Shown here one piece after another: positions 25,725 through 61,585 of a stretch of DNA of 64,000 bases (the first letter of the stretch is position 1; the number at the start of each line of letters is the position of its first letter). The notes beneath the pieces were generated by a model. That model did not search any database. It was given only the letters and a program-made list of their open reading frames with translations, and was not told where the DNA came from. The DNA is from Candidatus Melainabacteria bacterium (GTDB lineage: Bacteria > Cyanobacteriota > Vampirovibrionia > 2-02-FULL-35-15). A program made the position numbers and the translations under genes. Where the stretch lies: assembly GCA_016201905.1 (NCBI GenBank), contig JACQBQ010000001.1, forward strand, positions 3,405 to 67,404, in the 5' to 3' direction.

Positions 25725-25750
25725 TTTAAGTTACCTCCAAATATTTAGCT

Positions 25751-38891: not shown

Positions 38892-39482
38892 ATGCGAATT
38901 TTCCCAGCGTCAATGCTTAAAGGTTTATCAAGTACTTATAAAAATGCACCTGACAGAGTAAATGGATTATTTTTTCTAGCAGTAGAAGCAGGAGATATAA
39001 AAGCAGTTAATAAAATAATTTCTATACCAGGTTTTGATGTTAACAAACCAAAAGATGTTCGTGGACACACAGCTTTAATGAATGCAGCTTTTAATAACTG
39101 TTATAAAATTGTTCAAGCTTTAATTAATAAAGGTGCAAATGTAAATGTAAAAACTGAAGGCCCTGCAGGAGGTTATACAGCGCTTCATGCTGCTATTGAA
39201 GGCAGTGTTCTTGAAGATACAGATGGAAACATAGGTATTATTAATTTACTTTTAAAGCATGGCGCAAATATAAATGGAGGGGATGGGTTTACTCCTTTAA
39301 TGGAAGCAGCAATACAGGCAAATAAAGAGATAGTAGAACTACTTCTCAGTAACGGTGCAGATCCCAATCTTAAGGATAATGAAGGACACACAGCACTTGA
39401 TTTTATAAAAGATGGAAGAGCTCATGGAAATACTCAGTTAATACGAGAACTGACTGATCTGTTAAGTAAAGCAATGAAATAA
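38892..39482 (+). CDS. Ankyrin repeat protein
   Basis: At least 4 ANK repeats (G.TALM.AA..N....V..L...GANVN; GYTALHAAIEGS; GFTPLMEAAIQANKEIVELLLSNGADPN; GHTALDF). Confidence 0.85.
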   Translation: MRIFPASMLKGLSSTYKNAPDRVNGLFFLAVEAGDIKAVNKIISIPGFDVNKPKDVRGHTALMNAAFNNCYKIVQALINKGANVNVKTEGPAGGYTALHAAIEGSVLEDTDGNIGIINLLLKHGANINGGDGFTPLMEAAIQANKEIVELLLSNGADPNLKDNEGHTALDFIKDGRAHGNTQLIRELTDLLSKAMK

Positions 39483-39555: not shown

Positions 39556-40641
39556 TTAGTTCTCAGCAACTCTAAGAGCAATAGTTTTTTGTTCGATTTT
39601 CTTTTTAATTTTTGGCAGCATGTTTATTGCTTCTTCTTCGCCTACTTTAATTGCTTTTGCAAGACTTACTTTATCAAGGTTTAATATGCCCACTTCTTTT
39701 AAGTCCGGGCTTATAACAATATCTGCTTTATCCAGAGCTGCCTCTGACTGTGCCCTTAATCCAAGACCAATAACACGGATAATAATGCCTTCAAAAGATC
39801 TAAAGTTTTCTGATTTTATTTCTTCAAGCTTTCTATCGACATCCACAGCAATAACAATATCTGCTCCCATTTTTTTTGCCTCATCAACAGGAATATTTTT
39901 TAAAATCCCGCCATCGACAAGTAGCTGGTTGTTAATCGGAATTGGCTGACGCAGTGTAGGTATTGAAGTGCTTGCCTGAACTGCAAGGCCAACATCCCCG
40001 GATTTTATTACCACTGGCAAGCCACTAATTAAATCAACTGCAATAATGTGTAATGGAATACTTATGTTAATTGTTCCATCTTTTTTTGAAATCAGTTGGT
40101 TTACAAAATGATGTAATCTATGGTCATTATATAAGCCAGCATAAAAAGGTTTTCCTACAATAGTCCGAAATCCTCTATTTAGATAGAGGAAAAATGCTCT
40201 AAAGATAGAAAAATCTGTTTTATATACTTTTGTTATTGCACCTGTTAAAACCTGCTCTTCAATTTCATCTGGACTTAGTCCTCCTGAATATAGTGCTGCA
40301 ATTAAAGCTCCAGCACTAGTACCGACAAGGTAATCAACAGGAATATTTTCTCTTTCAAGAACTCTTAAAACACCAATTTGTGCAGCACCACGTGCGCCAC
40401 CACCGCCCAACGCTAATCCAATCTTTGGTCTTATTACAGAACTATTTTTTGCAAGGGCAGATGAGGTAGTAAAAATGAGTAGAAAGCAAAGAAAAAGAGA
40501 AAAGTTCTTTACGTCATTGCGAGGAGTGAAAAGACGTTGCATGCAACGTCTCCACGGCAATCTCCCAAACGTTAATGAGATTGCTTCGTCGTCCGCCTGG
40601 GCGGACTCCTCGCAATGACGTGTCACATTTTTTTTCTTCAC
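39556..40641 (-). CDS. Patatin-like phospholipase
   Basis: GGGARGAAQIG, GTSAGAL (catalytic Ser) and VDGGILKN (catalytic Asp). The first ~35 codons, including both candidate start ATGs at 40641 and 40542, come from a GC-rich repeat element. Confidence 0.8.
   Translation of the reverse strand: MKKKNVTRHCEESAQADDEAISLTFGRLPWRRCMQRLFTPRNDVKNFSLFLCFLLIFTTSSALAKNSSVIRPKIGLALGGGGARGAAQIGVLRVLERENIPVDYLVGTSAGALIAALYSGGLSPDEIEEQVLTGAITKVYKTDFSIFRAFFLYLNRGFRTIVGKPFYAGLYNDHRLHHFVNQLISKKDGTINISIPLHIIAVDLISGLPVVIKSGDVGLAVQASTSIPTLRQPIPINNQLLVDGGILKNIPVDEAKKMGADIVIAVDVDRKLEEIKSENFRSFEGIIIRVIGLGLRAQSEAALDKADIVISPDLKEVGILNLDKVSLAKAIKVGEEEAINMLPKIKKKIEQKTIALRVAEN
40513..40619. repeat. GC-rich palindromic mini-element, copy 2 (GTCATTGCGAGGAG...CTCCTCGCAATGAC), forming the 5' coding end of the patatin gene
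   Basis: Perfect 14-nt terminal inverted repeats. Internal palindromes GACGTTGCATGCAACGTC and GTCCGCCTGGGCGGAC. Confidence 0.8.
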
Positions 40642-42761: not shown

Positions 42762-43568
42762 ATGTTTAAGGTTTACACGCTATCGGACTCCAGCGGTGAA
42801 ACAGCTGAGCTTGTTGCCAAATCAGCTTTAAGTCAGTTTGAATCTTATAAGACAGAGATTCACAGGCTTCCTCAGGTTAGATCAGCTGAACAGGTAAAAG
42901 AGCTTTTTTCAAATGAAATAAAATCCCCAGCTATTATAGTTTATACATTAGTTTTACCTGAAGTCAGGCAGGCGCTAATTGAACAAGCTCAAAAGCACTC
43001 AATACCTATTTATGATGTGCTTGGGGATTTAGTTAGCAAATTAGAAGGCATTCTTCATGCCCCGCCTTTGCGTGAACCTGGTCTTAGATTAAAAGTCGAT
43101 CAATCTTATTTCAATAGGATGGATGCAATTCACTATGCGATTAAGTTTGATGATGGTCAGAGTTTAAATGGAATTGAAAGTGCTGATGTGGTTTTAATAG
43201 GTGTATCAAGAACTGGTAAAACACCAAGCTGTATGTATCTAGCACAACACTATGGCTTAAAAGCAGCAAATATTCCAATTGTTTCTGGAGTTGAACTACC
43301 CAAAAAATTGTTTCAGGTTCCAAGCAGTAAAATCATAGGACTAATGTGTGATCCTTTAATTTTACAGTCATTTAGAAGTACAAGAGCAAGCTCACTTCAA
43401 ATGGATTATAGTTCTGAGTATTGTGATTTTGATCATATTACAAAAGAAGTTGAACATTCAAAAAAAATCTTTCGTGACTTAAAATGTGAAGTGGTAGATA
43501 TGACAAATAGAGCTGTAGAAGAAACTGCAGTTGAGATAGTAGCAAAATTGCAACTAGTAAAGAAATGA
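42762..43568 (+). CDS. Pyruvate, phosphate dikinase regulatory protein (PDRP, DUF299, bifunctional kinase/pyrophosphorylase)
   Basis: P-loop VLIGVSRTGKTP plus family-wide similarity. Stop overlaps the ppdK start. Confidence 0.85.
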   Translation: MFKVYTLSDSSGETAELVAKSALSQFESYKTEIHRLPQVRSAEQVKELFSNEIKSPAIIVYTLVLPEVRQALIEQAQKHSIPIYDVLGDLVSKLEGILHAPPLREPGLRLKVDQSYFNRMDAIHYAIKFDDGQSLNGIESADVVLIGVSRTGKTPSCMYLAQHYGLKAANIPIVSGVELPKKLFQVPSSKIIGLMCDPLILQSFRSTRASSLQMDYSSEYCDFDHITKEVEHSKKIFRDLKCEVVDMTNRAVEETAVEIVAKLQLVKK

Positions 43569-46243
43569 AAAAAGTTTTCTTGTTTTCTGAAGCATTTAAA
43601 GCTTTTAATGGTGATGATTCCTTAATGCGTGAATATCTTGGCGGTAAAGGTACTGGCTTAGCCCAGATGACTAATGCAGGACTTAATGTGCCACCTGGAT
43701 TGACCATTACTACTAAAGCATGTGTGGAATACATGCAGAGTAAAAACATGTTTCCGCAAGGACTTTTTGATGAAATATTAGAAAAGTTGTCAGTTATCGA
43801 AGGTGAGCTGGGAAAAAAATTAGGTGATAAAAATAAACCGCTTTTAGTATCTGTCCGCTCTGGTGCCAGATTTTCAATGCCGGGCATGATGGATACAGTT
43901 TTAAATCTGGGTTTAAACGATGAAACTGTTGTAGGACTTGCCAAAGCTACTGCTAATGAGCGTTTTGCACTGGATAGCTATAGAAGGTTTATCCAGATGT
44001 TCGGTGATATTGTACTTGGGATTAATAAAGAATCCTTTGAGAGAGTTTTAACTGACTTTAAATCAAAAACAAAAATAACTTCAGATGCCCAGTTAGACGT
44101 CAGTGTATTGAAGGAGATAATTAAAGAGTTTAAAAACATTGTAAAAGAAAAAACAAAAAATGATTTTGTGCAGGATGTAAAAATCCAGCTTAAACTTGCT
44201 ATTGAAGCGGTTTTCAAATCCTGGAATAATCCCCGTGCCAAGTACTATAGAAAGTTAAATAAAATACCTGATGAGTCTGGAACTGCTGTAAGTGTTCAGG
44301 CAATGGTCTTTGGAAATATGGGCGATGATTCTGCAACTGGTGTTGCATTTACAAGAAATCCATCTACCGGGGAAGCTGAGCTTTATGGCGAATATTTGAT
44401 CTGTGCTCAGGGAGAAGATGTAGTAAGTGGCATCAGAACGCCAAAAAAAATAAGCGAAATGGGTAAAGAGCTGCCAAGTGTCTATAAACAATTTACCGAA
44501 TGTGCAAAAAAAATGGAAACTTACTATAGAGATGTTCAGGATATTGAGTTTACGATTGAATCTGGAAGGCTTTGGGTTTTACAGACAAGAGCAGCTAAAA
44601 GAACAGCACAAGCCTCTGTAAAAATTGCAGTTGATTTTGTCAGTGATAAAATTATCTCAAAAGAAGAAGCAATAACCAGAATTGATCCTGTGATCTTAAA
44701 TCAGTTTTTATTAAAAAGCTTTAACCCGAAAGCAAAAGAGCTTGCTCAAAAAGAAGGAAAACTACTTGCAGTTGGTTTAAATGCATCTCCAGGTGCAGCG
44801 ATTGGAAAAATTGTTTTTAATCCTGATGAATCTGAAAAACTTTCTTTAGCCGGGCAAAAAGTTATTTTAATAAGAGTAGAAACATGCCCTGATGACATTC
44901 ATGGAATAGTGTCTGCCGAGGGTGTTCTAACAAGTCGTGGTGGCATGACGAGCCATGCAGCAGTGGTAGCACGTGGCATGGGAAAACCATGTGTTGTTGG
45001 CTGTGAGGCTTTAAAGATTGATCTGGAAAAAGAAATTGTTTCAAGCAATGGTTACATTTTAAAAAAAGGAGATTTAATTTCTATCGATGGTTCTACTGGA
45101 CAGGTTTTTACTGGTGACATAGAGACTCAAGAACCAAAGATGAGTAAAGAACTTAAAACTTTGCTTTTGTGGGCAGATGAAATTAAAAAGCTTGGTGTTA
45201 GAGCAAATGCAGATACACCGACTGATGCTAAAAGAGCCTTGGACTTTGGGGCTTGCGGCATTGGGCTTTGCAGAACAGAGCATATGTTTATGCAGCAGGA
45301 GCGTTTAGTCTGGGTACAGAAGATGATTATGGCAAGCACTCACAGCGAAAGAGAAGAAGCCTTAAAAAAACTTTTGCCTTTTCAAAAACAAGATTTTAAA
45401 GATATTTTTAAAGTAATGGCAGGGCTTCCAGTAACTATTAGACTTTTGGATCCACCGCTACATGAGTTTTTGCCAAAACGTGATGAATTAATTGCTCAGG
45501 TGGGTGACTTAAAGTGTAAAGGACTTGATTATTCAAAAGAAGAAAAACTTTTAAATAAAGTCAGACATCTTCATGAAGTAAATCCAATGATGGGCTTACG
45601 TGGCTGTAGGCTGGGGATTTCTTATCCGGAAATAAATAAAATGCAGGTTGAGGCAATCTTTGAAGCAGCTTGTGAACTTGTGCAGGAAAAAATTGATGTA
45701 AAAGTAGAGATAATGATTCCGTTAATTAGTGAAGCAAAAGAACTAAAGCATGTTAAAGATCAACTTGAAAATACTGCAAAAGAAATTATGGAAAAATATA
45801 AAACACAAATTGATTATAAATTTGGCACGATGATTGAGGTTCCACGTGCTGCACTGACTGCTTATGAAATAGCTGAACATGCTGAGTTTTTTAGTTTTGG
45901 GACAAATGATCTGACTCAGATGACATTTGCTTTTAGCCGTGATGATGCAGAAGGCAACTTTTTACCCAAATACATTGAAACAAAAATCTTACCTGAAAAC
46001 CCATTTGAAGTTTTGGATACAAAAGGAGTAGGACGTCTTATGAGAATAGCTGTTGAAGACGGTAGAAAAAAAAGAAAAGATTTAAAGATTGGAATATGCG
46101 GAGAGCATGGCGGTGAACCTAAATCCATATCTTTTGCAAATGAGTTAGGTCTTGACTATGTAAGCTGTTCACCGTTTCGTATTCCTATAGCTAGATTAGC
46201 TGCAGCACAAGCTTGTTTGAAAGTAAAAGAGAGAGATAAGTAA
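43565..46243 (+). CDS. ppdK: Pyruvate, phosphate dikinase
   Basis: GGKGTGLAQM (ATP-grasp), catalytic His region GGMTSHAAVVARGMGKPCV, and the PEP-utilising C-terminal TIM barrel (GLCRTEHMF, NDLTQ). Confidence 0.95.
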   Translation: MKKVFLFSEAFKAFNGDDSLMREYLGGKGTGLAQMTNAGLNVPPGLTITTKACVEYMQSKNMFPQGLFDEILEKLSVIEGELGKKLGDKNKPLLVSVRSGARFSMPGMMDTVLNLGLNDETVVGLAKATANERFALDSYRRFIQMFGDIVLGINKESFERVLTDFKSKTKITSDAQLDVSVLKEIIKEFKNIVKEKTKNDFVQDVKIQLKLAIEAVFKSWNNPRAKYYRKLNKIPDESGTAVSVQAMVFGNMGDDSATGVAFTRNPSTGEAELYGEYLICAQGEDVVSGIRTPKKISEMGKELPSVYKQFTECAKKMETYYRDVQDIEFTIESGRLWVLQTRAAKRTAQASVKIAVDFVSDKIISKEEAITRIDPVILNQFLLKSFNPKAKELAQKEGKLLAVGLNASPGAAIGKIVFNPDESEKLSLAGQKVILIRVETCPDDIHGIVSAEGVLTSRGGMTSHAAVVARGMGKPCVVGCEALKIDLEKEIVSSNGYILKKGDLISIDGSTGQVFTGDIETQEPKMSKELKTLLLWADEIKKLGVRANADTPTDAKRALDFGACGIGLCRTEHMFMQQERLVWVQKMIMASTHSEREEALKKLLPFQKQDFKDIFKVMAGLPVTIRLLDPPLHEFLPKRDELIAQVGDLKCKGLDYSKEEKLLNKVRHLHEVNPMMGLRGCRLGISYPEINKMQVEAIFEAACELVQEKIDVKVEIMIPLISEAKELKHVKDQLENTAKEIMEKYKTQIDYKFGTMIEVPRAALTAYEIAEHAEFFSFGTNDLTQMTFAFSRDDAEGNFLPKYIETKILPENPFEVLDTKGVGRLMRIAVEDGRKKRKDLKIGICGEHGGEPKSISFANELGLDYVSCSPFRIPIARLAAAQACLKVKERDK

Positions 46244-46294: not shown

Positions 46295-47790
46295 CTAGTT
46301 GCAAGTATATTGATAAAACAAAGTTTTTTCAGGTTTTCCTATACCTTCTTTAGAAATTGTATAATTCTGTATTAAATAGATTTCAAATGATTTTATTTTC
46401 TTATCTTCTGGATGATTAGAGTTCCAGTCATTGCATAGAAATTTAGCATAAGAAGGCAAGTAATAAGGGTTATTTGGACCCCAGACAGTTGTTCTTAAAA
46501 TATAAACTAACCAGTAGTGGTTCTTAAAAATAGCTGAAAGATTTTTGGATTTTTCCCAGCTAACTGGTTGTCCATTTCTAAACAAATCAACTTCTTCTCC
46601 ATTTTTAAGTTTTGCAGGAATTACAGGCCATGTGCTGTATCTCTGTATAGGTGAAAACATATTCCATTTTTGTTCTATTAAAAGTGATTTTCCTATCCAC
46701 TTATATTTTTCAGGGATTAACTGTTTTGAACAAAGCCCTCCTAAGTTCCAAAGGAATATATATGTTATAAAAAATAACGATAAGAAATTTGCAATTGGTA
46801 AATTTTTTAAGTCAGCAAAATTATTACCTGTAAACTTAGAATTAGTCATTTTATCCCAAAAAACAGGAGGTATAAAAATAAACAAAGCTGCAATATCAAC
46901 AAAATGAAATAAGCCTAAATTAAAAAAAATAGAAAAAATTAAGTGTAAACAAATAAGCACTGTTACTGCAAAAAGACGAATTAATCCATTCTTTCTAGGA
47001 GCCAATAGGAATAACGGCAAAATGACTTCAGCCAAGACTATTGCATAAGTAAGAAATGTTAAAAAGTTCTTAGGAAGGTTCAAAAGAAAAGATGCTGCTG
47101 GTCTTGCATATTGTGCTAGGTTTAAAGAAAAATATAATGCAGATCCATTTTGCCATTCAGAAGTCTGTAATTTACATGCAACTGAAAACCAATATATAAA
47201 TAAAACTTGTAGAATGATTCCCATAGTGCAAAAAGATGCAATTTGCTTCGACAATTTTTTTTTATTAAAACCAAAAAAATTATCTAATGAATAACACTCT
47301 CCCATCGGCAAAAATAAGCTCCAGAAAAATAGCAATCTGAGCATTAGGTCTCCCCCTGAAAGAATGTGATCATTTCTGGCATGCAACGATATCAATAAAT
47401 ACCAACATATAAATGTTGTAATTCTAGTTTTAAATCCTAATATAAGAAGTAATGCAAATATTCCAGAAACAACAAATAGCATTACCTGTACAGAGTAGTC
47501 TCCGCTTATATCATAAATAGATGGTAGTAAAGGGTGTAATGAATAATAGCGTTCAATTTCTCTAGGAAAAATACCTTCATCTGTATAAAATGCTTTTATG
47601 TCAGAGGAACGAAGAACTAATTCAACAATAAATAATAAAGGCTATGCTTATCCTAAAAAGAGCAAGGGATCTTATATCAATGCCAAATAATTCGATGATT
47701 TTAGATTTAAATAGTGTTAAAATTTTTTTTCTCTCCTGGAATGCTCTTATACACTAGAGCAATTAAGAAAAATAAAAGTAGCAATTCCAT
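46295..47790 (-). pseudogene. HTTM-domain (vitamin K-dependent gamma-carboxylase-like) membrane protein gene, interrupted by two frameshifts near its 5' end. The intact C-terminal ORF is 46295..47482.
   Basis: The main ORF has LISLHARNDHILSGGDLMLRLLFFWSLFLPMGECYSLDN. Upstream, other frames encode IDIRSLALFRISIAFIIY and ELVLRSSDIKAFYTDEGIFPR, matching the HTTM N-terminus as recalled (RSLAAFRI...L.RL.D.EAFYSD.G.LPR). Frame changes sit at an A8 run (47723-47730) and a TTATT-rich run (about 47625-47640). Confidence 0.5.
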
Positions 47791-47805
47791 ATTTTATGAA
47801 TTATT

Positions 47806-48102
47806 CTATTCTTTGCTCATCTTGCCAATTACTTCTTTTATAATCTTTACACCCTTATATTCATCTGGTAGTTTTTTTAATGAATCATTTGTTTCTCCAT
47901 AAATAAAGATAACCCAATTAGTTTTCTTACTATTAGGATCTTTAACTTTATCCCATCCATAACTAATATCCTGTCTTCCTTTGAAAAACTTTTTCTCATA
48001 TTCTTCAGCTAATTTTTCTATTTCTTTCTTTGTAAGATTTTTGCTATGGTTTGCTTTATTAATATTGGATGGATTTGTAGAGTCCTTTGGTATTTTTGGC
48101 AT
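47806..48102 (-). CDS. Hypothetical 98-aa hydrophilic protein
   Basis: Perfect AAGGAG lies 8 nt before the ATG. Same strand, between the HdrDE-like and HTTM genes. Confidence 0.5.
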   Translation of the reverse strand: MPKIPKDSTNPSNINKANHSKNLTKKEIEKLAEEYEKKFFKGRQDISYGWDKVKDPNSKKTNWVIFIYGETNDSLKKLPDEYKGVKIIKEVIGKMSKE

Positions 48103-48129
48103 TGTTAAGTCTCCTTTATTTATAATAAG

Positions 48130-50280
48130 CTACATAGTTGCACTAGCAACCAATTCACTAATATCTTTTACAGTTGGTGGTTCCCCGCTTTTATCAAGTG
48201 TTCTTGCAGTTTCAAGCATAATAGTACAGAAAGGACATGCGCTTGCAGCTGTCTTTGCACCTGATTCTTTAATTTCATTTAACCTCATAACGTTAATTTG
48301 TTTTCCAGGTGCTTCATACCAGAGCTGTGCTCCACCACCACCACAGCATGTCCCTTTTTCACGAGAGTTTTCCATTTCAATATATTTTAAGCCGGGGATT
48401 TTATTTAAAATGTTTCTTGGAGCATCATATTGACCATTATGACGACCAAGATAACAAGAATCGTGATAAGTTATTTCTTCACTGATTTCCTTTGTCATTG
48501 AGAGCTTTCCTTCTTTTATTAATTCCCATAAGATTTCAGTATGATGAAATACGCTGACATCTTTTAAGCCAAAGTCTGGATATTCATTTTTAAATGTATT
48601 AAAACAGTGGGGACAATGAGTAATAATTTTTTTAACATTTTTGCCTTTAAATATTTCAATATTTTCAATTGCCAGTTCCTGAAAAAGCCCTTCATCGCCA
48701 GCTCTGCGAGCTGTATCACCTGTGCATTTTTCTTTTTTGCCTAAAATTGCAAACTTTACATTTGCTTTTTTAAGTAAACTTACCATTGTCTTTGCAATAT
48801 TTTGATTTCTTGAATCATAAGCTCCAGCACAACCAACCCAGTATAAATATTCAAAGTCACTGGTAGTTTCAATGTTTGGAACATTCAGACCTTCTGTCCA
48901 TTTTTCACGATCTTCTGGTGGCTGCCCCCATGGATTTGAACGTGAACGAATATTTTTTAGGGTATTAAGCAGATTATTTGGTGCTTTATTTTCTGAAATT
49001 AATGACCTTCTTAAATCAATGATTTTTGTTAATTGATCAATTCCAACAGGGCAGGTCTCTACACAAGCTCGACAGGAAGTGCATGACCATAGGGTTTCAG
49101 GAGTAAGTAGATCAGATAAAGTTAGCGTTGTAGTGTCATTGCGAGCCGAAGGCAAAGCAATCTCGCTAACTGTTTCACGTTGTTGAGATTGCTTCGCTCG
49201 CCTCGTCGGAGACGAGTCGGAGCGGGTCGCTGCACTCCTCGCAATGACGCTATTCGGTTTCTCTTCCTGCTTTCCACCTTTAAACCCATGATTGAGAATA
49301 GGTTCCTTATTCATGATTTGCTTCAAATCTAAAATTATCCATTTAGGTGAAAGTGGTTTTTCTGAATTTGTTGCAGGACATACTTCATGACATTTTCCAC
49401 AGGCTGTACATGTGTCCAGATCCATTAAATCTTTCCATGTAAAATCTTCTATCTTTGAAACTGTTTGTGCAAAATCATCTGGTGGATTTTCCATTGCCAT
49501 GATCTCTACTAAGTTAAACGGTGTACTTAAAGCCCCTTTTGGTTTTAAGTCGCTAAAAAATATATTTATTGGTGCTATAAACATATGACTAAACTTTGTA
49601 AATGGAATTAGAGCAATAAATGAAAATGTTTGTATTGAATGAAGCCACCATAAAATGAGATGTAGTGTCTTTTGTGTTTCATAAGAAAATCCTTGAACGC
49701 TATTTGCTATAAGTGCTCCAAGAAATGCATAAGGTTCAATCTGATCTGTTGCTGATTGTCTTAAACCTTCGATTAAAAATCCAAGAACTACAAATAATGC
49801 CAAGTAGACTAATTGAAACCAATCGTTCTGAAAATTATCTAGTCTTTTTGGTTTTACAACATACCTAATAAATGCAAAAAATCCAAGACCAACGAGCATT
49901 AACACGCCAGATAAGTCCATTAAAAAAGAATAGGACTTGTAAAACATGCCATGAAAAAAATATTCAGGCATGCGATCCTGAACTGTAAGTATGTCAGTCC
50001 CTATCCACAAAACAAAAAATCCATAAAAAACTAATATATGTGCAAGGATTGGAAGCTTATCCTTTCCCCAGCCTTTATATAAAAAACTTCTTACAAACAT
50101 GTTTTGAATGCGCTTGCTGAAGTCAGTAAGGTTATTTTTTGGTTTGCCTCTTGCCCAGCTTTTAATTTTTAAATAAAACCCAGAGATAAAAAATATTGCT
50201 GAAATAAAAAATAAAGAATAGAAAATTTCTTTGTAATGAGGCACATCGTGAATATTCCACCATAGACCGCGTGTTTCCAT
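48130..50280 (-). CDS. HdrDE/DsrMK-like membrane-bound Fe-S oxidoreductase: N-terminal NarI-like di-heme b membrane domain fused to two [4Fe-4S] ferredoxin motifs and two CCG cysteine-rich domains
   Basis: 5-6 TM helices with paired His (ILAHILVFYGFF, HLILWWLHSIQT). CTACGKCHEVCP and CTSCRACVETCP motifs. CCG-type clusters (CCGGGG, CPFC, HCPHC). Carries an in-frame 114-nt repeat insertion. Confidence 0.7.
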   Translation of the reverse strand: METRGLWWNIHDVPHYKEIFYSLFFISAIFFISGFYLKIKSWARGKPKNNLTDFSKRIQNMFVRSFLYKGWGKDKLPILAHILVFYGFFVLWIGTDILTVQDRMPEYFFHGMFYKSYSFLMDLSGVLMLVGLGFFAFIRYVVKPKRLDNFQNDWFQLVYLALFVVLGFLIEGLRQSATDQIEPYAFLGALIANSVQGFSYETQKTLHLILWWLHSIQTFSFIALIPFTKFSHMFIAPINIFFSDLKPKGALSTPFNLVEIMAMENPPDDFAQTVSKIEDFTWKDLMDLDTCTACGKCHEVCPATNSEKPLSPKWIILDLKQIMNKEPILNHGFKGGKQEEKPNSVIARSAATRSDSSPTRRAKQSQQRETVSEIALPSARNDTTTLTLSDLLTPETLWSCTSCRACVETCPVGIDQLTKIIDLRRSLISENKAPNNLLNTLKNIRSRSNPWGQPPEDREKWTEGLNVPNIETTSDFEYLYWVGCAGAYDSRNQNIAKTMVSLLKKANVKFAILGKKEKCTGDTARRAGDEGLFQELAIENIEIFKGKNVKKIITHCPHCFNTFKNEYPDFGLKDVSVFHHTEILWELIKEGKLSMTKEISEEITYHDSCYLGRHNGQYDAPRNILNKIPGLKYIEMENSREKGTCCGGGGAQLWYEAPGKQINVMRLNEIKESGAKTAASACPFCTIMLETARTLDKSGEPPTVKDISELVASATM
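49135..49248. repeat. GC-rich palindromic mini-element, copy 3, inserted in-frame (114 nt = 38 codons) in the HdrDE-like gene
   Basis: Termini GTCATTGCGAGC...CCTCGCAATGAC. Internal CTCGTCGGAGACGAG and GCAAAGCAATCTC/GAGATTGCTTCGC. Confidence 0.8.
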
Positions 50281-50339
50281 AGGAAATAATTTTAACAGTG
50301 GTATCTGGCACCAAGCGACTGGTAAGTATAAAAGTTAAT

Positions 50340-50720
50340 CTATGCTAGTGCTTTTTCTATTCCGGGTAAGTTATCTAATAGTATTTGCTTAGTATCTATA
50401 TTATTTAAAAATAATTCTTTGCAAACCTCAAAATTTGCACGAGTCATTTTCTTAGTACTTGAAACACCTGGTCCTCCAGGACTAAGCACCAATAATTCTG
50501 GTAAACCTCTTGTTTCCTTAGTTCCTTGCAAGTTGATAAAGTATCTTTTACCATCTTGATGGTTTACACCAAGTCCGTATGGGTTACCAGTTTCCTCTTT
50601 TACAAAAAGTTGAGGTTCACATAATGGAAACTCAAGAATCACTTTATTCTGCTTATCTCTTTTGCAAGGAGCATGACCTGGATATGGACCATTAAGCTGA
50701 GTTGAAAGTATTTTTACCAT
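50340..50720 (-). CDS. Hypothetical protein (126 aa)
   Basis: ORF on the same strand between the TPR lipoprotein and HdrDE-like genes. Confidence 0.4.
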   Translation of the reverse strand: MVKILSTQLNGPYPGHAPCKRDKQNKVILEFPLCEPQLFVKEETGNPYGLGVNHQDGKRYFINLQGTKETRGLPELLVLSPGGPGVSSTKKMTRANFEVCKELFLNNIDTKQILLDNLPGIEKALA

Positions 50721-50746
50721 TTGTTTTCCTCCTGATTTTCTTCTAT

Positions 50747-51634
50747 TTAGCCTGTAGCGTGATTTGTTTGTCTTATACCTTTTGCTCTGTCAGCAAAAAT
50801 TTTAGCTTCATTTTCTTTGCCCAGCTTTTTACAAACCTCTGCCATATTTTCAAGTACGACTACTGTTTCAGGATGGTTTTTACCCAGCTTTTTTTCAAGT
50901 ATAGATAATGTTTGCTTGAAAAGAGACTCTGATTCAGGATATTTGCCTTGGAAGTAATAAACTGTTGCAAGGTCATTTAAAGATTTTGCATAAGCAGGTT
51001 CTTCTTTCTTATTTGCTTTTTCAAAAATTGAAAGAAGTCTTTTTAAAGCCAGCTCTGAATCAAGATATTTTCCTTCTATTTTATAGAGGTCAGCCAAATT
51101 GTTTAGTGGTGTTTGTAATTCTATATGTTCTTTTCCTAGTTGCTTTTCTAATATTGACAGAGATTCTTTATAAAGGGATTCGGCTTGATTATATTTCTTT
51201 TGTGAAACATAAAGTGTTGCAAGATTATTTAAAGATAATGAAACGTCTGGATGCTCATTTCCTAACACTTGTTTTCTCATTAAAAGTGCTTGATTGTAAT
51301 ATGATTCTGCTTTTTTAAAATCGCCTTGAACACGATAAAGTTCTGCTAAATTGTTTAGAGATGTAGCTACTTTTGCATTGCTTGATCCAAATGCTTTTTT
51401 TGCAAAGTTTAGTGCATCATTAGCTGCAGATGTTGCTTCTCTAATTTTTCCTTGCTGGTAAAGTTGAACAGCTTTTATGTTAAGTGATTTCCACTCTTCC
51501 TGTTTTTTTAATATTTCTCCAGGACTTTGATTGCTGGCACATTGTAAGCATGGTACTTTAGCGCAGCCTGTAAAAGAAATAGCTATAACTAGAATTAGTA
51601 GTGTACTAATAAAACTTTTTAATCTCAGCATCAT
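50747..51634 (-). CDS. TPR-repeat lipoprotein
   Basis: Signal peptide plus lipobox (ISFTGC). About 6 TPR units with LNNLA.LY..QG.Y..AE consensus. Confidence 0.75.
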   Translation of the reverse strand: MMLRLKSFISTLLILVIAISFTGCAKVPCLQCASNQSPGEILKKQEEWKSLNIKAVQLYQQGKIREATSAANDALNFAKKAFGSSNAKVATSLNNLAELYRVQGDFKKAESYYNQALLMRKQVLGNEHPDVSLSLNNLATLYVSQKKYNQAESLYKESLSILEKQLGKEHIELQTPLNNLADLYKIEGKYLDSELALKRLLSIFEKANKKEEPAYAKSLNDLATVYYFQGKYPESESLFKQTLSILEKKLGKNHPETVVVLENMAEVCKKLGKENEAKIFADRAKGIRQTNHATG

Positions 51635-51737: not shown

Positions 51738-51980
51738 TTAATTCTTAGCTTTTTCCTTGAATACATTACACTTAGCAATTGCTCCATCTTCTTCAAAAAT
51801 TACATCCGGTCTTAAATTAAAAATACACCTTACACCAGGCTGGTAAGGTTTTTGTGGTGCAAAGAATTGACATTTATTACAAAGCTCATAACGAGCAGTA
51901 GTGGTTGCCTTGCGACGCCACGGATCGCTTGTTATTTCTGAATCAACATTTTCATTTAGGTCGGACATGAATCCTCTCAC
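51738..51980 (-). CDS. Small hypothetical protein (80 aa) with a CxxC pair
   Basis: ORF only. Confidence 0.3.
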   Translation of the reverse strand: MRGFMSDLNENVDSEITSDPWRRKATTTARYELCNKCQFFAPQKPYQPGVRCIFNLRPDVIFEEDGAIAKCNVFKEKAKN

Positions 51981-52038: not shown

Positions 52039-52494
52039 CTACGTAATTGCTTTTATCAAAGCTTGCAGTCCTAATAGATAGCTATCTTTCCCAAATCCTG
52101 TTATCTGCCCCATACTAACAGGTGCTATAAGGGACTTATGCCTAAACTCTTCTCTTTGGTAAATATTTGACAGGTGTACTTCTACTGTAGGCAGTTTTAT
52201 AGCAAGGATTGCATCTCTTATTGCAACGCTTGTATGTGTGTATGCTGCTGGGTTTATGAGTATCCCTTTGATTCTGCCTCTTGAAGCTTTCTGAATAAAG
52301 TTTACAATCTCACCTTCAATATTTGACTGCTTTATTTCAAGATCAATATTTGAATCCTTTGCTAGTTTTTTTAGCTCAGCATTAATCTTTTCCAGGCTTA
52401 TTTTCCCATAAACATTTTTTTCTCTTTTGCCCAGCATGTTTAAGTTAGGGCCATGAAGAACAAGGATTTTCTTATGTTTGTTTTTCTTTGGCAT
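52039..52494 (-). CDS. aroQ: 3-dehydroquinate dehydratase, type II
   Basis: [32 protein letters not shown], and [13 protein letters not shown]. Confidence 0.9.
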
Positions 52495-57423: not shown

Positions 57424-57574
57424 TGTCATTGCCCGGCTCCGCCTCGTCGGAGACGAGGCGAGCGAGGAGCGAAGCGACGAAGCAATCCCGATCGCAATTA
57501 AATCAAGACTTAACTAATAACCATTTTCATAATATTCTTAGTCTGGGACTGCTTTGCCTTTAGCTCGCAGTGAC
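57424..57574. repeat. Composite ~150-nt copy of the GC-rich element (TGTCATTGCCCGG...AGCTCGCAGTGACA) in the convergent region between the 102-aa ORF and pilC
   Basis: Termini match copy 1. It shares CCTCGTCGGAGACGAGG with copy 3 and GAAGCAATCCC with copy 1. The AT-rich middle suggests a two-module arrangement. Confidence 0.6.
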
Positions 57575-59065: not shown

Positions 59066-61585
59066 ATGAAATACAAATGGCTCATAAGAGAATCAAAAGA
59101 AATTACAAAGGATTTTCTTCATACTGCTTTTGATTCAAGAGTTATTGCCAAGTTACTTTTAAATAGAGGAATTGATTCACCTGAAAAAGCAAAATCTTAT
59201 TTAGAGCCAAAGTTTTATAAAGAATCCAGACCAGAAGAAATCCAGGATCTGATAAAAGCAAAAGATCGAATCATTGAAGCAATAAATAAAAAAGAAAAAA
59301 TTACTATTTTTGGAGATTATGATGTAGATGGTGTTACTTCTACAGCTTGTTTACTAATTGCCCTTAGACAATTTACCGATAACATTGACTTTTATATTCC
59401 AAATAGGCTTACTGAAGGCTATGGATTAAATAATGAAGCAGTTAAAATTATAGCTAAAAAAAATAAAAAGGCTTGCCATGGCAAGCCTTTACTGATTACC
59501 TGTGACTGTGGAATAACAAACCATAAAGAAGTCAAGCTTGCAGGTGAGCTTGGTATGGATGTAATAGTCACTGATCACCATTCTTTACCTGAAGTTTTGC
59601 CCGATGCTTATGCAGTCTTAAATCCAAAACTTTTGCCAGGTGATCATAAACTACACTTTTTGCCCGGAGTAGGCGTTGCTTATAAACTTGCTAAGGCAAT
59701 TTTAGAGGAAAGAAAAGGAGAAGTTTGCAAAGAAGATCTTCTTGATCTTGTAGCACTTGGAATGATTGCTGACCTTGCACCGCTTGTAGATGAAAACAGG
59801 TATTTAGTTCAGATTGGTCTTGAAAAATTAGCAAGAACTGAAAAGATTGGTTTAAGAGAACTGCTTAGGATGTGTGGCTTTACTCCACAGGATAAAAATA
59901 GTCCTACGACAGAACATGTTGGCTTTGGAATTGCACCAAGGATAAATGCTGTAGGCAGGCTTACAGATGCAGCTCTGGCTGTAAGGCTTTTAACTACCTG
60001 TGATTTATTTGAAGCTGTTCAAATAGCTGGTGAACTTGAAAGTCAAAACAGACAGAGACAGTCACTCTGTGAAAGCACATTAAATGAAGCTGTTACGCTT
60101 GTATCTGAGCAGGTAGATTTTAAAAATGATAAATGCATTGTGCTGGCTAAAGATAGCTGGCATCATGGAGTAATTGGGATTGTAGCTTCAAGAGTAGTTG
60201 AAAAATTTAGTTTACCTACTGTTTTAATCGCCATTGATAAAGAACAAAACATAGCGCGAGGTTCAGGGCGCAGCATTGAGAAGTTAAATATTGTAGATGC
60301 TTTAACTAAAAGCTCTAAACATCTTGAGAAATATGGCGGTCATAAAGCTGCATGCGGACTAAGTGTAAAACCTGAGTTTGTTAATGATTTTATTTTTGAT
60401 TTTAAAGACAATGTAAATAAAATGCTTGACAATCAGAATTTAGAACCTGTTTTAAAGATTGATATGGAATTACCGCTTTCAGCTTTAGTTATGGATTTAA
60501 TGAATAAAGTAAATAAATTATCGCCTTTTGGTTTAGGAAATCCTATGTCAATTTTTACAAGCGATGAAATTGAAATAATTGGCATTAAAAATATTGGTAA
60601 AAACGGCCAGCATTTGAAGCTGACCTTAAGAACTTTGGATAGTGTCATTGCGAGGAGCAAAGAGACGTTGCATGCAACGTCTCCACAGCAATCTCAACAA
60701 CATGAAGAAGTGATCGAGATTGCTTCGCCTTTGGCTCGGAATGATGTGAAGCAGTTTGAAGCTCTAATCTGGAATCATAATGTTAATTTGCGATTTAATT
60801 TAGGAGATCAAATAAAAATCGCCTACACGCCAAAGTTAAATAATTACAATGGTGAGACATTTATACAGCTGGAAGTAAAAGACTGGCAGATCTTAAATGA
60901 TAAGAGTTTAGAAAATAAGAAAATTAAAAAAGAAGAAAAAGAAATTGAAATTTATGATTTTAGAGACAAAACACAAGAATTGTTAAGTATTCTTTCCTCA
61001 AGGCTTGATTCTGTAACCTGTTTTGCTGAGATTGAGCAAAAAAATCATTTAGATCTAAAAACCTTTTCAAGAAACAAAATTAAAAAAGCTGAAAGCCTTG
61101 TTTTTTTGGAAATCCCTCCTGACGAGTTTGTCTTTTTAGATATAATAAAACGCTCATGTGCTAAAAAGATTTACTTTGCATTTACCCAGCATCAAAATAA
61201 CTTAGAACCCCAGAATTTATTAAAAAGACTCATTGGTATGCTTAAATATGCAGTAAGCAATAAAAACTCAATCATAAACGAAACGGAGCTCCAGTCAGCT
61301 TTAGGTATAAATAGAACATCACTGGCTTATGCACTGGAAATACTTGTAAAGATAGGACTCTTATCGTATGAAAAGACAAACGGTGAATTAAATATCAATC
61401 TTTTAACTCCTGCTCGACAGAATTTCCTAGAGTTAATAGAATATAACCTGCTGGTTTCAGAGTTAAAACAAATTTTAGATTTTAAGAACTGGCTTTGTGA
61501 ATCTGATATTCTGCAAATAGAAAAGATGTTGAATGAACACAATATTTTGGCAAAGTTTATTTCTTATGAATCAATAAAGGTATAG
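59066..61585 (+). CDS. recJ: Single-stranded-DNA-specific exonuclease RecJ with a ~280-aa C-terminal extension
   Basis: DHH motifs (GDYDVDGVTS, TDHHS), the DHHA1 domain, and an OB-fold region carrying an in-frame GC-rich repeat insertion. Confidence 0.85.
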   Translation: MKYKWLIRESKEITKDFLHTAFDSRVIAKLLLNRGIDSPEKAKSYLEPKFYKESRPEEIQDLIKAKDRIIEAINKKEKITIFGDYDVDGVTSTACLLIALRQFTDNIDFYIPNRLTEGYGLNNEAVKIIAKKNKKACHGKPLLITCDCGITNHKEVKLAGELGMDVIVTDHHSLPEVLPDAYAVLNPKLLPGDHKLHFLPGVGVAYKLAKAILEERKGEVCKEDLLDLVALGMIADLAPLVDENRYLVQIGLEKLARTEKIGLRELLRMCGFTPQDKNSPTTEHVGFGIAPRINAVGRLTDAALAVRLLTTCDLFEAVQIAGELESQNRQRQSLCESTLNEAVTLVSEQVDFKNDKCIVLAKDSWHHGVIGIVASRVVEKFSLPTVLIAIDKEQNIARGSGRSIEKLNIVDALTKSSKHLEKYGGHKAACGLSVKPEFVNDFIFDFKDNVNKMLDNQNLEPVLKIDMELPLSALVMDLMNKVNKLSPFGLGNPMSIFTSDEIEIIGIKNIGKNGQHLKLTLRTLDSVIARSKETLHATSPQQSQQHEEVIEIASPLARNDVKQFEALIWNHNVNLRFNLGDQIKIAYTPKLNNYNGETFIQLEVKDWQILNDKSLENKKIKKEEKEIEIYDFRDKTQELLSILSSRLDSVTCFAEIEQKNHLDLKTFSRNKIKKAESLVFLEIPPDEFVFLDIIKRSCAKKIYFAFTQHQNNLEPQNLLKRLIGMLKYAVSNKNSIINETELQSALGINRTSLAYALEILVKIGLLSYEKTNGELNINLLTPARQNFLELIEYNLLVSELKQILDFKNWLCESDILQIEKMLNEHNILAKFISYESIKV
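60644..60746. repeat. GC-rich palindromic mini-element, copy 6 (near-identical 5' half to copy 2), inserted in-frame in recJ
   Basis: GTCATTGCGAGGAGCAAAGAGACGTTGCATGCAACGTCTCCAC...GAGATTGCTTCG...CTCGGAATGATG. Confidence 0.75.

What the first reader, a model, noticed from the sequence alone, without database searches (positions are those of the whole stretch)
46295..51634. Candidate undescribed membrane redox module: TPR lipoprotein, 126-aa protein, HdrDE-like heme/Fe-S oxidoreductase, 98-aa protein and HTTM (vitamin-K-carboxylase-like) protein
Five minus-strand genes are spaced 15-60 nt apart and are likely one transcription unit; an 80-aa ORF and aroQ lie upstream on the same strand. The core pairs a NarI/HdrE-like di-heme-b quinone-interacting membrane domain, fused to 2x[4Fe-4S] plus two CCG domains, with an HTTM-domain protein. 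In animals the HTTM enzyme consumes vitamin K hydroquinone to make the epoxide. A quinone- or thiol-cycling system of this composition is, as far as I know, uncharacterised in bacteria. It is also unexpected in a genome that otherwise looks metabolically reduced. The small 126-aa and 98-aa proteins have strong RBSs and no recognisable domains.
Basis: inference. Interest (0 to 1): 0.8.

Follow-up and report, generated by a model that had tools for sequence, protein, structure and literature searches.

The report
EMO-type quinone reductase, decayed HTTM neighbour
The core of this Melainabacteria gene cluster belongs to an already characterised enzyme family (ETF:menaquinone oxidoreductase, EMO/EtfD), the vitamin-K-carboxylase-like gene next to it is broken by two frameshifts, and the pairing recurs only in close relatives, so this is a modest lead and not a new redox system.

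Summary
All the ORFs exist and every domain call holds: HTTM, NarI-like, two 4Fe-4S motifs, two CCG motifs, and a TPR lipoprotein. Three points change the picture.

1. **The 716-aa 'HdrDE-like' protein is a full-length homologue of EMO/EtfD.** It matches PDB 9OJN at E=6e-118, and the three heme-ligand histidines and all cluster cysteines are conserved. Of 72 distant homologue loci, 56 have etfA and 55 have etfB adjacent. The Melainabacteria copies do not.

2. **The HTTM gene is interrupted by two +1 frameshifts.** One lies in an A8 run and one near 47,630. Both are identical in an independent assembly. The gene also lacks the DCC domain that its relatives carry.

3. **The 126-aa and 98-aa genes are lineage-specific insertions.** Their only homologues sit in unrelated contexts.

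EMO–HTTM adjacency is real but narrow. It occurs in 5 of 11 lineages of one Melainabacteria clade, in 0 of 72 distant EMO loci, and in none of the HTTM loci outside that clade. What is conserved in every close relative with readable flanks is the trio of a 76-aa Cys4 protein, a TPR lipoprotein with CxxC, and EMO.

A functional quinol link between EMO and the intact GGCX-like pairs in sister genomes is not excluded, but nothing here demonstrates it.

The parts
52039..52494 (-). aroQ, type II 3-dehydroquinate dehydratase; first gene of the same-strand run
   Evidence: Pfam DHquinase_II 197 bits; NCBIfam aroQ above cutoff. Syntenic upstream of the Cys4 gene in L003, L091, L092, L093 and L096.
51738..51968 (-). 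76-aa cytoplasmic Cys4 protein ('p80'). The true start is ATG 51968, not GTG 51980. Four invariant cysteines (CxxC...C...C). No known family.
   Evidence: Nine orthologues at 64-81% identity lie upstream of TPR/EMO; L093 differs only in gene order, with TPR downstream of EMO. No Pfam, NCBIfam or PDB hit apart from weak zinc-finger-like matches.
50747..51634 (-). TPR lipoprotein: signal peptide, lipobox SFTGC, then a conserved CxxC (PCLQC) 4 residues after the lipidated Cys, then TPR_12 repeats
   Evidence: Pfam TPR_12 235 bits. Orthologues at 45-59% identity flank EMO in all close relatives. The lipobox followed by CxxC is conserved in 10 of 10.
50340..50720 (-). 126-aa soluble protein of unknown function; a lineage-specific insertion between TPR and EMO
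   Evidence: No domain hits. Three homologues at ~70% identity sit between a HAD hydrolase and an EGF-repeat gene, not near EMO. Relatives have only ~25-100 nt between TPR and EMO.
48130..50280 (-). EMO/EtfD-family membrane oxidoreductase: NarI-like five-helix heme-b domain (His81, His214, His232), two cubane 4Fe-4S motifs (C291, C400), and two CCG / non-cubane-cluster motifs
   Evidence: PDB 9OJN_A E=6e-118 over residues 51-692, with His and Cys ligands aligned. Pfam CCG, Fer4 and Nitrate_red_gam. Motifs and hydrophobic segments located. etfA is adjacent in 56 and etfB in 55 of 72 distant homologue loci.
49136..49247 (.). GC-rich palindromic MITE-like element inserted in frame in the EMO gene, in the linker between the two cubane-cluster motifs
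   Evidence: It lies within, and accounts for most of, the ~44 extra residues that relatives lack (716 vs ~672 aa). Inverted ends are GTCATTGCGAG / CTCGCAATGAC. Four more copies occur in the window.
47806..48102 (-). 98-aa lysine-rich soluble protein of unknown function; a lineage-specific insertion between EMO and HTTM
   Evidence: No domain hits. One 78% homologue sits on L173 in a different context, and DNA similarity covers only the RBS and the gene. Absent from every other locus fetched apart from L173 and the window's own Logan contig L002.
46295..47790 (-). GGCX-like HTTM gene, interrupted. It runs from ATG 47790 in three successive frames, with +1 shifts in the A8 run (47723-47730) and at about 47622-47641. 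The longest intact ORF is 46295-47482 (395 aa). There is no DCC insert.
   Evidence: The N-terminus MELLLLFFLIALVY resembles L096 MEWSILLLAFLIALVW. AF2 model of the reconstruction has pLDDT 87.9, and its top PDB hits are all GGCX. It deviates at 16 of 83 highly conserved columns, the most of 21 sequences.
43565..46243 (+). Pyruvate, phosphate dikinase, convergent with HTTM; marks the boundary of the cluster
   Evidence: NCBI name obtained. The same convergent arrangement is seen in L003 and L096. This gene is lost together with HTTM in L001, L088, L089 and L092/95.

Best explanation
This is a chromosomal gene run of a groundwater Melainabacteria (Vampirovibrionia) MAG.

Its functional core is a single-polypeptide membrane oxidoreductase of the EMO/EtfD family. 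In characterised members, reduced electron-transfer flavoprotein docks on the cytoplasmic CCG (non-cubane cluster) domain. Electrons then pass through two cubane [4Fe-4S] clusters to heme b in a five-helix NarI-like domain, where menaquinone is reduced. I infer the same electron path here. The donor (ETF or something else) and the quinone are not shown.

In this clade the gene is always preceded or flanked by a 76-aa Cys4 protein and a TPR lipoprotein with a membrane-proximal CxxC. These are probably clade-specific accessory partners.

The clade's ancestor also carried two tandem GGCX-like HTTM genes downstream. The first had a DCC thiol-oxidoreductase domain and a C-terminal TPR. These genes evolve fast and have been lost repeatedly. 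In this genome only one copy remains. It has no DCC domain and is disabled by two single-base insertions, so it is most likely a pseudogene.

The 126-aa and 98-aa genes are unrelated small genes that landed in two intergenic spacers. A palindromic MITE-like repeat has also inserted in frame into a tolerant linker of the EMO gene.
For: EMO membership:
- 9OJN_A, 398 bits, with the three His and all Cys motifs aligned.
- domain architecture and motif positions.
- etfA next to 56 and etfB next to 55 of 72 homologue loci at 35-40% identity.
- Family definition from bioRxiv 10.64898/2026.08.18.745454, PMC3582634 and PMC8593149/PMC13083937.
- PMC6349859 reports Bcd with non-bifurcating EtfAB in many Melainabacteria.

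Conserved trio.

HTTM decay:
- two frame changes, identical in a second assembly, with homologues covering the reconstruction.
- the highest deviation at conserved columns, including H73Y.
- no DCC insert.

Ancestral tandem pair and repeated loss:
-.
- all seven EMO-adjacent HTTMs cluster together in a neighbour-joining tree.
- they share only 31-44% identity while EMO is 70-76% identical.

Small genes are not members.

MITE-like insert.
Against: - No etfAB, acyl-CoA dehydrogenase or menaquinone-synthesis gene lies in the 64-kb window or next to any Melainabacteria EMO locus. The electron donor and the quinone are therefore unverified.
- The frameshifts could be consensus errors or population variants. 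The second assembly may derive from the same reads.
- Most polar residues conserved across the HTTM family are still present (K187, R119, N120, D128, E235). Any inactivation is therefore recent, or the 395-aa product may retain some role. NCBI annotates it as an intact CDS.
- The adjacency has been kept, tightly spaced and on the same strand, while the HTTM sequences diverged to ~35-45% identity. That hints at a functional link which this explanation treats as dispensable.
Confidence: 0.7

Rival explanations
1. EMO, the TPR proteins and the GGCX-like HTTM enzymes form one quinone/thiol-cycling system. EMO supplies menaquinol to the HTTM enzyme, or re-reduces its DCC CxxC domain, and the HTTM enzyme then modifies a substrate. 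The window would hold a working or recently disabled copy.
For: HTTM genes lie directly downstream of EMO, on the same strand, with gaps of 0-130 nt or overlaps, in L003, L008, L091 and L096. The EMO-adjacent HTTMs form one group in the tree, so the adjacency is old. The fold is GGCX-like, and GGCX uses a naphthoquinol. CxxC motifs recur in the DCC domain, the TPR lipoprotein and the Cys4 protein.
Against: In the window HTTM is frameshifted twice and has no DCC domain. Six of eleven clade lineages keep EMO, TPR and the Cys4 protein without HTTM. None of 72 distant EMO loci has HTTM, and no HTTM locus outside the clade has EMO. Other HTTM paralogues in the same MAGs sit elsewhere. The unrelated genes aroQ and PPDK are just as syntenic, so the adjacency may only reflect shared ancestry. 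In EMO the CCG clusters are described as electron-transfer sites, not disulfide-reducing sites.
Confidence: 0.12
2. The HTTM gene is functional here. Either the frameshifts are sequencing or assembly errors, or they are bypassed (slippage on the A8 run), or the 395-aa ORF starting at ATG 47482 makes an active truncated protein.
For: One shift lies in an A8 homopolymer. Most polar residues conserved in the family are retained. No in-frame stop occurs within the 395-aa body. NCBI annotates it as a CDS.
Against: Two independent assemblies agree base for base. The second shift is not in a homopolymer. The truncated product would lack the first transmembrane helix and the invariant D-x-R-S-L-A-x-F-R motif. 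There is no Shine-Dalgarno sequence before either ATG. The sequence has the most deviations at conserved columns in the set. The gene has clearly been lost in sister lineages.
Confidence: 0.15
3. The 716-aa protein is not an ETF-dependent EMO in this clade. It would be a quinol-linked thiol/disulfide reductase in the manner of HdrDE or DsrMK. The conserved Cys4 protein, or the CxxC lipoprotein, would be its redox substrate or donor.
For: No etfAB lies next to any Melainabacteria copy. A highly conserved Cys4 protein always accompanies the gene. The CCG domains are the catalytic disulfide-reducing sites in true heterodisulfide reductases.
Against: By far the best characterised relative is EtfD, at 398 bits, against ~27 bits for HdrB. 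No NCBIfam Hdr, Dsr or Tmc model reaches its cutoff. ETF genes need not be adjacent, and many Melainabacteria do encode EtfAB. The Cys4 protein has no resemblance to DsrC or TusE, and its structure could not be predicted with confidence.
Confidence: 0.15

Closest known systems
EMO / EtfD: ETF:(methyl)menaquinone oxidoreductase. Examples are Syntrophus aciditrophicus SaEMO; Mycobacterium EtfD (Rv0338c, PDB 9OJN); Syntrophomonas wolfei Swol_0698 'DUF224'.
   Same: One polypeptide with an N-terminal five-helix NarI-like heme-b domain, two cubane 4Fe-4S motifs and two CCG (non-cubane cluster) motifs. The three conserved heme histidines are present. Full-length homology at E=6e-118.
   Different: No etfAB lies adjacent, unlike 56 of 72 distant homologues. 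There is a clade-specific Cys4 protein and a TPR-CxxC lipoprotein beside it, and HTTM genes downstream in some lineages. A repeat-derived insert of ~37 aa lies in the linker. It lacks the long C-terminal extension of the 1042-aa mycobacterial protein. Heme number, donor and quinone are unknown.
HdrDE, the membrane-bound heterodisulfide reductase of Methanosarcina (also DsrMK, HmeCD)
   Same: The same three-module architecture: a NarI-like cytochrome b plus HdrC-like and HdrB-like modules.
   Different: HdrDE and its relatives are two subunits. They use methanophenazine with CoM-S-S-CoB, or DsrC. Sequence similarity to solved Hdr subunits is marginal (E ~1e-5), and no NCBIfam Hdr or Dsr model reaches its cutoff.
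[quoted passage not shown]
   Same: Predicted fold matches over ~490 aligned columns, covering both the membrane domain and the C-terminal beta-rich domain. Pfam HTTM scores above its gathering threshold.
   Different: Only 14-17% identity, and no sequence-level hit to GGCX even with a family profile. The bacterial function is unknown. The copy here is frameshifted. Equivalence of the catalytic lysine was not established.
Bacterial HTTM–DCC1-like proteins (with a DUF5819 partner) and the malonomycin carboxylase MloH
   Same: Relatives of the window protein carry a DCC1-like (DxxCxxC) domain inserted between the HTTM membrane domain and the C-terminal domain, as in the 'YuxK/DCC family' HTTM fusions discussed in bioRxiv 10.64898/2026.08.19.745780.
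   Different: The window copy has lost the DCC segment altogether. Its positional orthologues have a degenerate one (YYNSANNL / YYDGRSNAW). No DUF5819 partner or biosynthetic cluster is nearby.
SdpB (TIGR04033), the HTTM protein needed for SdpC toxin maturation in Bacillus
   Same: A distant HTTM-family relative (53.6 bits).
   Different: Far below the family cutoff of 178 bits. No sdpA- or sdpC-like neighbours.

Membership tests
EMO / EtfD (ETF:menaquinone oxidoreductase) | Single chain combining a NarI-like five-helix domain, two cubane [4Fe-4S] motifs and two CCG/NCB motifs | tested here: met
   Pfam Nitrate_red_gam, Fer4_8 and related families, and CCG x2. CxxCxxCxxxCP at residues 291 and 400, CCG at 645, CPHC/CPFC at 556 and 682, four strongly hydrophobic segments plus a fifth that carries the histidines.
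EMO / EtfD (ETF:menaquinone oxidoreductase) | Three conserved heme-ligand histidines (SaEMO H87, H233, H251; MsEMO H223 equivalent) | tested here: met
   Window H81, H214 and H232 align with His residues of 9OJN_A; H214 aligns with Ms H223. Residue roles are taken from the preprint.
EMO / EtfD (ETF:menaquinone oxidoreductase) | Full-length sequence homology to a biochemically characterised member | tested here: met
   9OJN_A E=6.1e-118, 398 bits, query residues 51-692.
EMO / EtfD (ETF:menaquinone oxidoreductase) | EtfAB partner encoded adjacent or elsewhere in the genome | tested here: inconclusive
   No etfA or etfB in the 64-kb window or in any Melainabacteria locus fetched. etfA is adjacent in 56 and etfB in 55 of 72 distant homologue loci. 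The rest of the MAG could not be searched. The literature reports EtfAB in many Melainabacteria.
EMO / EtfD (ETF:menaquinone oxidoreductase) | Menaquinone or methylmenaquinone present; ETF-dependent quinone reduction | not testable with these tools
   No men or futalosine genes in the window. Activity requires biochemistry.
HdrDE / DsrMK-type heterodisulfide reductases | Meets a curated equivalog model, or is closest to Hdr/Dsr subunits | tested here: not met
   Best NCBIfam hits (TfrB 170 bits vs cutoff 385; DsrK 68 vs 400; QmoC 39 vs 300) are all far below cutoff. PDB HdrB hits reach only E ~1e-5.
HTTM / GGCX-like | Pfam HTTM domain above the gathering score | tested here: met
   PF05090 34.0 bits against a cutoff of 27.7, but only profile positions 61-257 are covered by the intact ORF.
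HTTM / GGCX-like | GGCX-like three-dimensional fold | tested here: met
   The AF2 model of the reconstructed 478-aa protein has pLDDT 87.9 and pTM 0.88. The top 16 PDB hits are all GGCX, E 3e-9 to 1e-3, TM-score ~0.5 normalised to the query.
HTTM / GGCX-like | Intact reading frame that includes the first transmembrane helix and the D-x-R-S-L-A-x-F-R motif | tested here: not met
   The N-terminal 100 or so residues are spread over two other frames. The same sequence appears in a second assembly.
HTTM / GGCX-like | Catalytic base equivalent to GGCX Lys218, and quinol-dependent activity | tested here: inconclusive
   A nearly invariant Lys (K187 of the reconstruction) is retained. Its equivalence to K218 rests on my memory of the GGCX sequence. 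A family profile found no GGCX at E<=10, so no residue-level alignment was obtained.
HTTM–DCC fusion proteins | DCC1-like DxxCxxC domain (PF04134) | tested here: not met
   No PF04134 hit in the window protein, and the alignment shows the whole insert is missing. The domain is present in L008_605, L003_725 and L096_722.
SdpB family (TIGR04033) | Score above the curated cutoff | tested here: not met
   53.6 bits against a cutoff of 178.4.

The most novel reading that the evidence does not exclude
In one clade of groundwater Melainabacteria, five components would form an ancestral operon that works as a bacterial counterpart of the vitamin K cycle. The components are an EMO-type menaquinone reductase, a Cys4 protein, a CxxC-bearing TPR lipoprotein, and two tandem GGCX-like HTTM enzymes, one of which carries a DCC thiol-oxidoreductase domain and a TPR domain. 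Quinol made by EMO would drive an HTTM-catalysed modification of an unknown substrate, and the CxxC modules would recycle the quinone product. The window would preserve a recently inactivated version of this system.
Probability: 0.1. Interest if true: 0.7.

Novelty: new variant of a known kind. Interest (0 to 1): 0.33.

Why it matters
- **Annotation.** A protein labelled only '4Fe-4S dicluster domain-containing protein' or 'HdrDE-like' can now be assigned to the EMO/EtfD family. That gives Melainabacteria, the non-photosynthetic sisters of Cyanobacteria, a plausible route from flavoprotein-linked dehydrogenases into a quinone pool.
- **Clade-specific partners.** EMO in this clade comes with a Cys4 protein and a TPR-CxxC lipoprotein that no characterised EMO has.
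- **A tractable lead on bacterial HTTM proteins.** The old but dispensable adjacency to fast-evolving GGCX-like genes is one of the few genomic hints about what these proteins might use as a cofactor source. It is best pursued in sister genomes with intact genes, not in this one.
- **A caution for gene-neighbourhood reasoning.** A tidy-looking five-gene 'operon' here contains a pseudogene and two unrelated insertions.

Tried and rejected
- **RNA genes.** Rfam at gathering thresholds and tRNA scans of the window found nothing.
- **Promoters and terminators.** The scan gave counts no higher than shuffled sequence and no intergenic terminator, so it says nothing about operon structure.
- **Small proteins and the TPR protein.** PHROGs and PADLOC gave only a generic TPR hit.
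- **Sequence link from HTTM to GGCX.** A profile of 21 HTTM homologues found no PDB sequence even at E<=10. Only the fold comparison links the protein to GGCX.
- **Structure of the Cys4 protein.** The single-sequence model was unusable at pLDDT 55. PDB and Pfam searches gave only weak zinc-finger-like hits.
- **Conserved neighbours of this HTTM subfamily across phyla.** None beyond lineage-level synteny. A CCG protein next to HTTM in a Phycisphaera MAG proved to be GlcF of a glcDEF operon, probably a coincidence.
- **Is the window HTTM a chimera of the two ancestral paralogues?** Segment-wise comparison shows it is closest to the second paralogue (L003_594) throughout, so a simple chimera is not supported. 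Only the first 14 residues resemble paralogue 1 of L096.
- **EMO-like genes of the 43-47% identity Melainabacteria group.** They are solitary, next to metH, with no ETF, TPR, Cys4 or HTTM genes.
- **Exact look-up of the window's EMO gene in the contig index.** Not found.


Full report
**Source and observation**

The window comes from a 'Candidatus Melainabacteria bacterium' MAG. The exact proteins are MBI3589793-97, with locus tags HY094_00230/00240, on an 89,682-bp contig. The best relatives of the large protein are Melainabacteria and Caenarcaniphilales MAG proteins.

Their Pfam and NCBIfam assignments are as predicted:
- TPR_12 for the 295-aa protein, which has a signal peptide and a lipobox.
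- Nitrate_red_gam, several 4Fe-4S families and two CCG domains for the 716-aa protein.
- HTTM for the last gene.
- DHquinase_II for aroQ.
- Nothing for the 126-, 98- and 80-aa ORFs.

The gaps between genes are 26, 59, 27 and 15 nt.

**The HTTM gene is broken**

The 15-nt spacing requires HTTM to start at ATG 47790. That frame ends after 28 codons. The invariant HTTM N-terminal motif (…ELFGIDIRSLALFRI…) is encoded in a second frame. The remaining 395 aa are in a third frame, and this is the only part listed as an ORF. Pfam accordingly matches only profile positions 61-257.

Two single-base insertions explain the frames. One is in an A8 run (47723-47730) and one is at about 47622-47641.

About 120 homologues were listed. 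The unfused forms (~475 aa) align with the stitched sequence over 97-100% of its length. The start MELLLLFFLIALVY resembles the start of the first HTTM gene in relative L096. A Logan assembly of run SRR12113410 is identical across the region.

The stitched protein deviates from the family at 16 of 83 highly conserved columns. That is the most of the 21 sequences compared, although most conserved polar residues remain. It also lacks the DCC1-like thiol-oxidoreductase insert found in many relatives.

An AlphaFold model of the stitched protein is confident (pLDDT 87.9). In the PDB it matches only vitamin K-dependent carboxylase, across both domains. No sequence-level link to GGCX could be obtained. 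The 'vitamin-K-carboxylase-like' label is therefore right at the level of fold, but this copy is most likely a pseudogene.

**The 'HdrDE-like' protein is an EMO/EtfD homologue**

Against PDB sequences the protein matches chain 9OJN_A at E=6e-118 over residues 51-692. That chain is the 'iron-sulfur-binding reductase' of Mycobacterium smegmatis. HdrB and HdrC subunits reach only E ~1e-5.

9OJN is EtfD/EMO, the membrane enzyme that passes electrons from electron-transfer flavoprotein to menaquinone (PMC13083937 and PMC8593149). A 2026 preprint describes the Syntrophus enzyme. It has a five-helix NarI-like domain with three conserved histidines, an HdrC-like domain with two cubane clusters, and an HdrB-like 'CCG' domain with non-cubane clusters that serve electron transfer and not disulfide chemistry. 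The same family was earlier called DUF224 (Swol_0698) in Syntrophomonas.

In the window protein, H81, H214 and H232 align with the histidines of the mycobacterial chain, and H214 aligns with Ms H223. All cysteine motifs are present.

An independent context test agrees. A metagenome scan returned 72 homologue loci at 35-40% identity. Of these, 56 encode EtfA and 55 encode EtfB next to the gene, often together with acyl-CoA dehydrogenases.

The Melainabacteria copies differ in this respect. None has etfAB nearby, whether in the 66-80% identity group or in the 43-47% group. None is in the 64-kb window either, which is mostly housekeeping genes. Published analyses report butyryl-CoA dehydrogenase with non-bifurcating EtfAB in many Melainabacteria (PMC6349859). 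An ETF donor is therefore plausible but is not shown for this genome.

**What is conserved around it**

I could examine eleven lineages with a 70-76% identical EMO: the window, L001, L003/L094, L008, L088, L089, L090, L091, L092/95, L093 and L096.

- *TPR lipoprotein.* It flanks EMO in all eleven.
- *Cys4 protein.* It is present wherever the contig extends far enough upstream, except in L008, where a phosphoglucomutase gene lies upstream instead. The gene order varies once, in L093.
- *Features of the Cys4 protein.* It has four invariant cysteines and is 64-81% identical across orthologues. Its true start is ATG 51968.
- *Features of the lipoprotein.* All ten lipoprotein sequences compared keep a CxxC a few residues after the lipidated cysteine.
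- *HTTM genes.* They follow EMO in five lineages. In L003, L008 and L096 they form a tandem pair. The first copy carries a C-terminal TPR region (with a DCC1-like domain as well in L003 and L096), and the second carries a DCC1-like segment that is degenerate in L003 and L096. L091 has a partial copy at the contig end, and the window has the broken single copy.
- *Lineages without HTTM.* Six have none. There EMO abuts the PPDK-regulator or 159-aa gene, or is followed by a second TPR protein.
- *Origin of the adjacent HTTMs.* The seven EMO-adjacent HTTM proteins group together in a neighbour-joining tree that has no support values. They share only 31-44% identity, while the flanking EMO and PPDK are 70-78% identical.

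The simplest history is an ancestral tandem pair that evolves quickly and is lost repeatedly.

Outside this clade the pairing does not exist. None of the 72 distant EMO loci has an HTTM neighbour. Among 80 HTTM loci from many phyla, only the two Melainabacteria loci already mentioned have an EMO. This HTTM subfamily has no conserved neighbours of any kind.

**The two small genes**

The 126-aa protein has three homologues at ~70% identity. All lie between a HAD hydrolase and an EGF-repeat gene.

The 98-aa protein has one 78% homologue, on a contig where neither flank resembles the window. DNA similarity there covers only the ribosome-binding site and the gene.

Relatives have no room for either gene between TPR, EMO and HTTM. 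Both are real genes, and both have strong Shine-Dalgarno sequences, unlike EMO and HTTM. They are insertions and not conserved parts of a module.

**Interpretation**

The best-supported reading is an EMO-family quinone reductase with two clade-specific companions, followed in this genome by the remains of an accessory GGCX-like gene.

The long-lived, tightly spaced, same-strand arrangement and the recurring CxxC motifs are suggestive. Against it:
- Half the lineages dispense with HTTM.
- Other HTTM paralogues in the same MAGs sit away from EMO.
- Unrelated genes (aroQ, PPDK) are just as syntenic.
- The window's own copy is defective.

I put about 0.1 on that reading. I give 0.15 each to 'HTTM is actually functional here' and to 'this clade's enzyme uses a thiol or Cys4 partner and not ETF'.

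**Verdict**

The core enzyme belongs to a known, characterised family. The gene context (no adjacent etfAB, the Cys4 and TPR-CxxC partners, variable HTTM genes) is a new variant of it. Interest is moderate to low for this window. It is higher for the intact clusters in relatives.

Noticed in passing
window 49136-49247, 60645-60744, 40514-40618, 13706-~13790, 57440-57573: A family of ~100-112-bp GC-rich (49% against 33% for the genome) palindromic MITE-like elements with inverted ends GTCATTGCGAG…CTCGCAATGAC. Two copies sit in frame inside coding genes without breaking them. One is in EMO, where it lies within the ~44 extra residues that relatives lack. The other is in a RecJ-like gene at about residues 526-560. 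This resembles Rickettsia palindromic elements. The 10-mer end occurs 9 times against 2.5 expected. Related copies lie in intergenic DNA of relatives (L003 2990-3033, L091, L022, L001).
   Followed up: partly
window 50747-51634 (N-terminus, near 51540-51634) and orthologues in L001, L003, L008, L088, L089, L091, L092, L093, L096: Every orthologue of the TPR lipoprotein keeps a CxxC motif 4-12 residues after the lipidated cysteine (for example C-AKVP-CLQC). This suggests a membrane-proximal periplasmic redox or metal site next to the EMO gene.
   Followed up: partly
window 51738-51968: The '80-aa ORF' is a 76-aa protein (ATG 51968) with four invariant cysteines and a DPWRxKATTTARYDLC motif. It is 64-81% identical in nine genomes and more conserved than the neighbouring TPR protein. 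It is always near EMO and has no known family. It could be a small metal-binding partner or electron donor.
   Followed up: partly
L003 7824-11785, L008 9884-13581, L096 12039-15968: In relatives the EMO-adjacent HTTM genes form a tandem pair with a division of labour. In L003 and L096 copy 1 has an intact DCC motif (YYDDNCNFC in L096) plus a C-terminal TPR domain, and copy 2 has a DCC-like segment that has lost its cysteines (YYDGRSNAW, YYNSANNL). In L008 copy 1 has the TPR but no detected DCC domain, and copy 2 carries the DCC domain. All copies evolve much faster (31-44% identity) than their neighbours (70-78%).
   Followed up: partly
window 50720 and 48102 compared with 50280 and 47790: The two inserted small genes have strong Shine-Dalgarno sequences (AGGAGG, AAGGAG). 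The resident EMO and HTTM genes have none. This is consistent with a different origin or expression regime for the inserted genes.
   Followed up: no
L035 5865-11461 (Phycisphaera MAG): An HTTM gene lies immediately downstream of a glcD-glcE-glcF (glycolate oxidase) operon whose GlcF has CCG domains. This is the only other CCG–HTTM adjacency among the 80 HTTM loci and is probably a coincidence.
   Followed up: partly
window 46295-47482: The public annotation (NCBI protein matching P0121) presents the 395-aa fragment as an intact 'HTTM domain-containing protein' and not as a pseudogene.
   Followed up: yes
window 25092-27191: Three consecutive minus-strand genes encode HEAT-repeat proteins. Elsewhere in the window there are ankyrin-repeat (38892-39482) and FG-GAP-repeat (1793-4691) proteins, and a 1443-aa ORF with no Pfam hit (6034-10365).
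   Followed up: no
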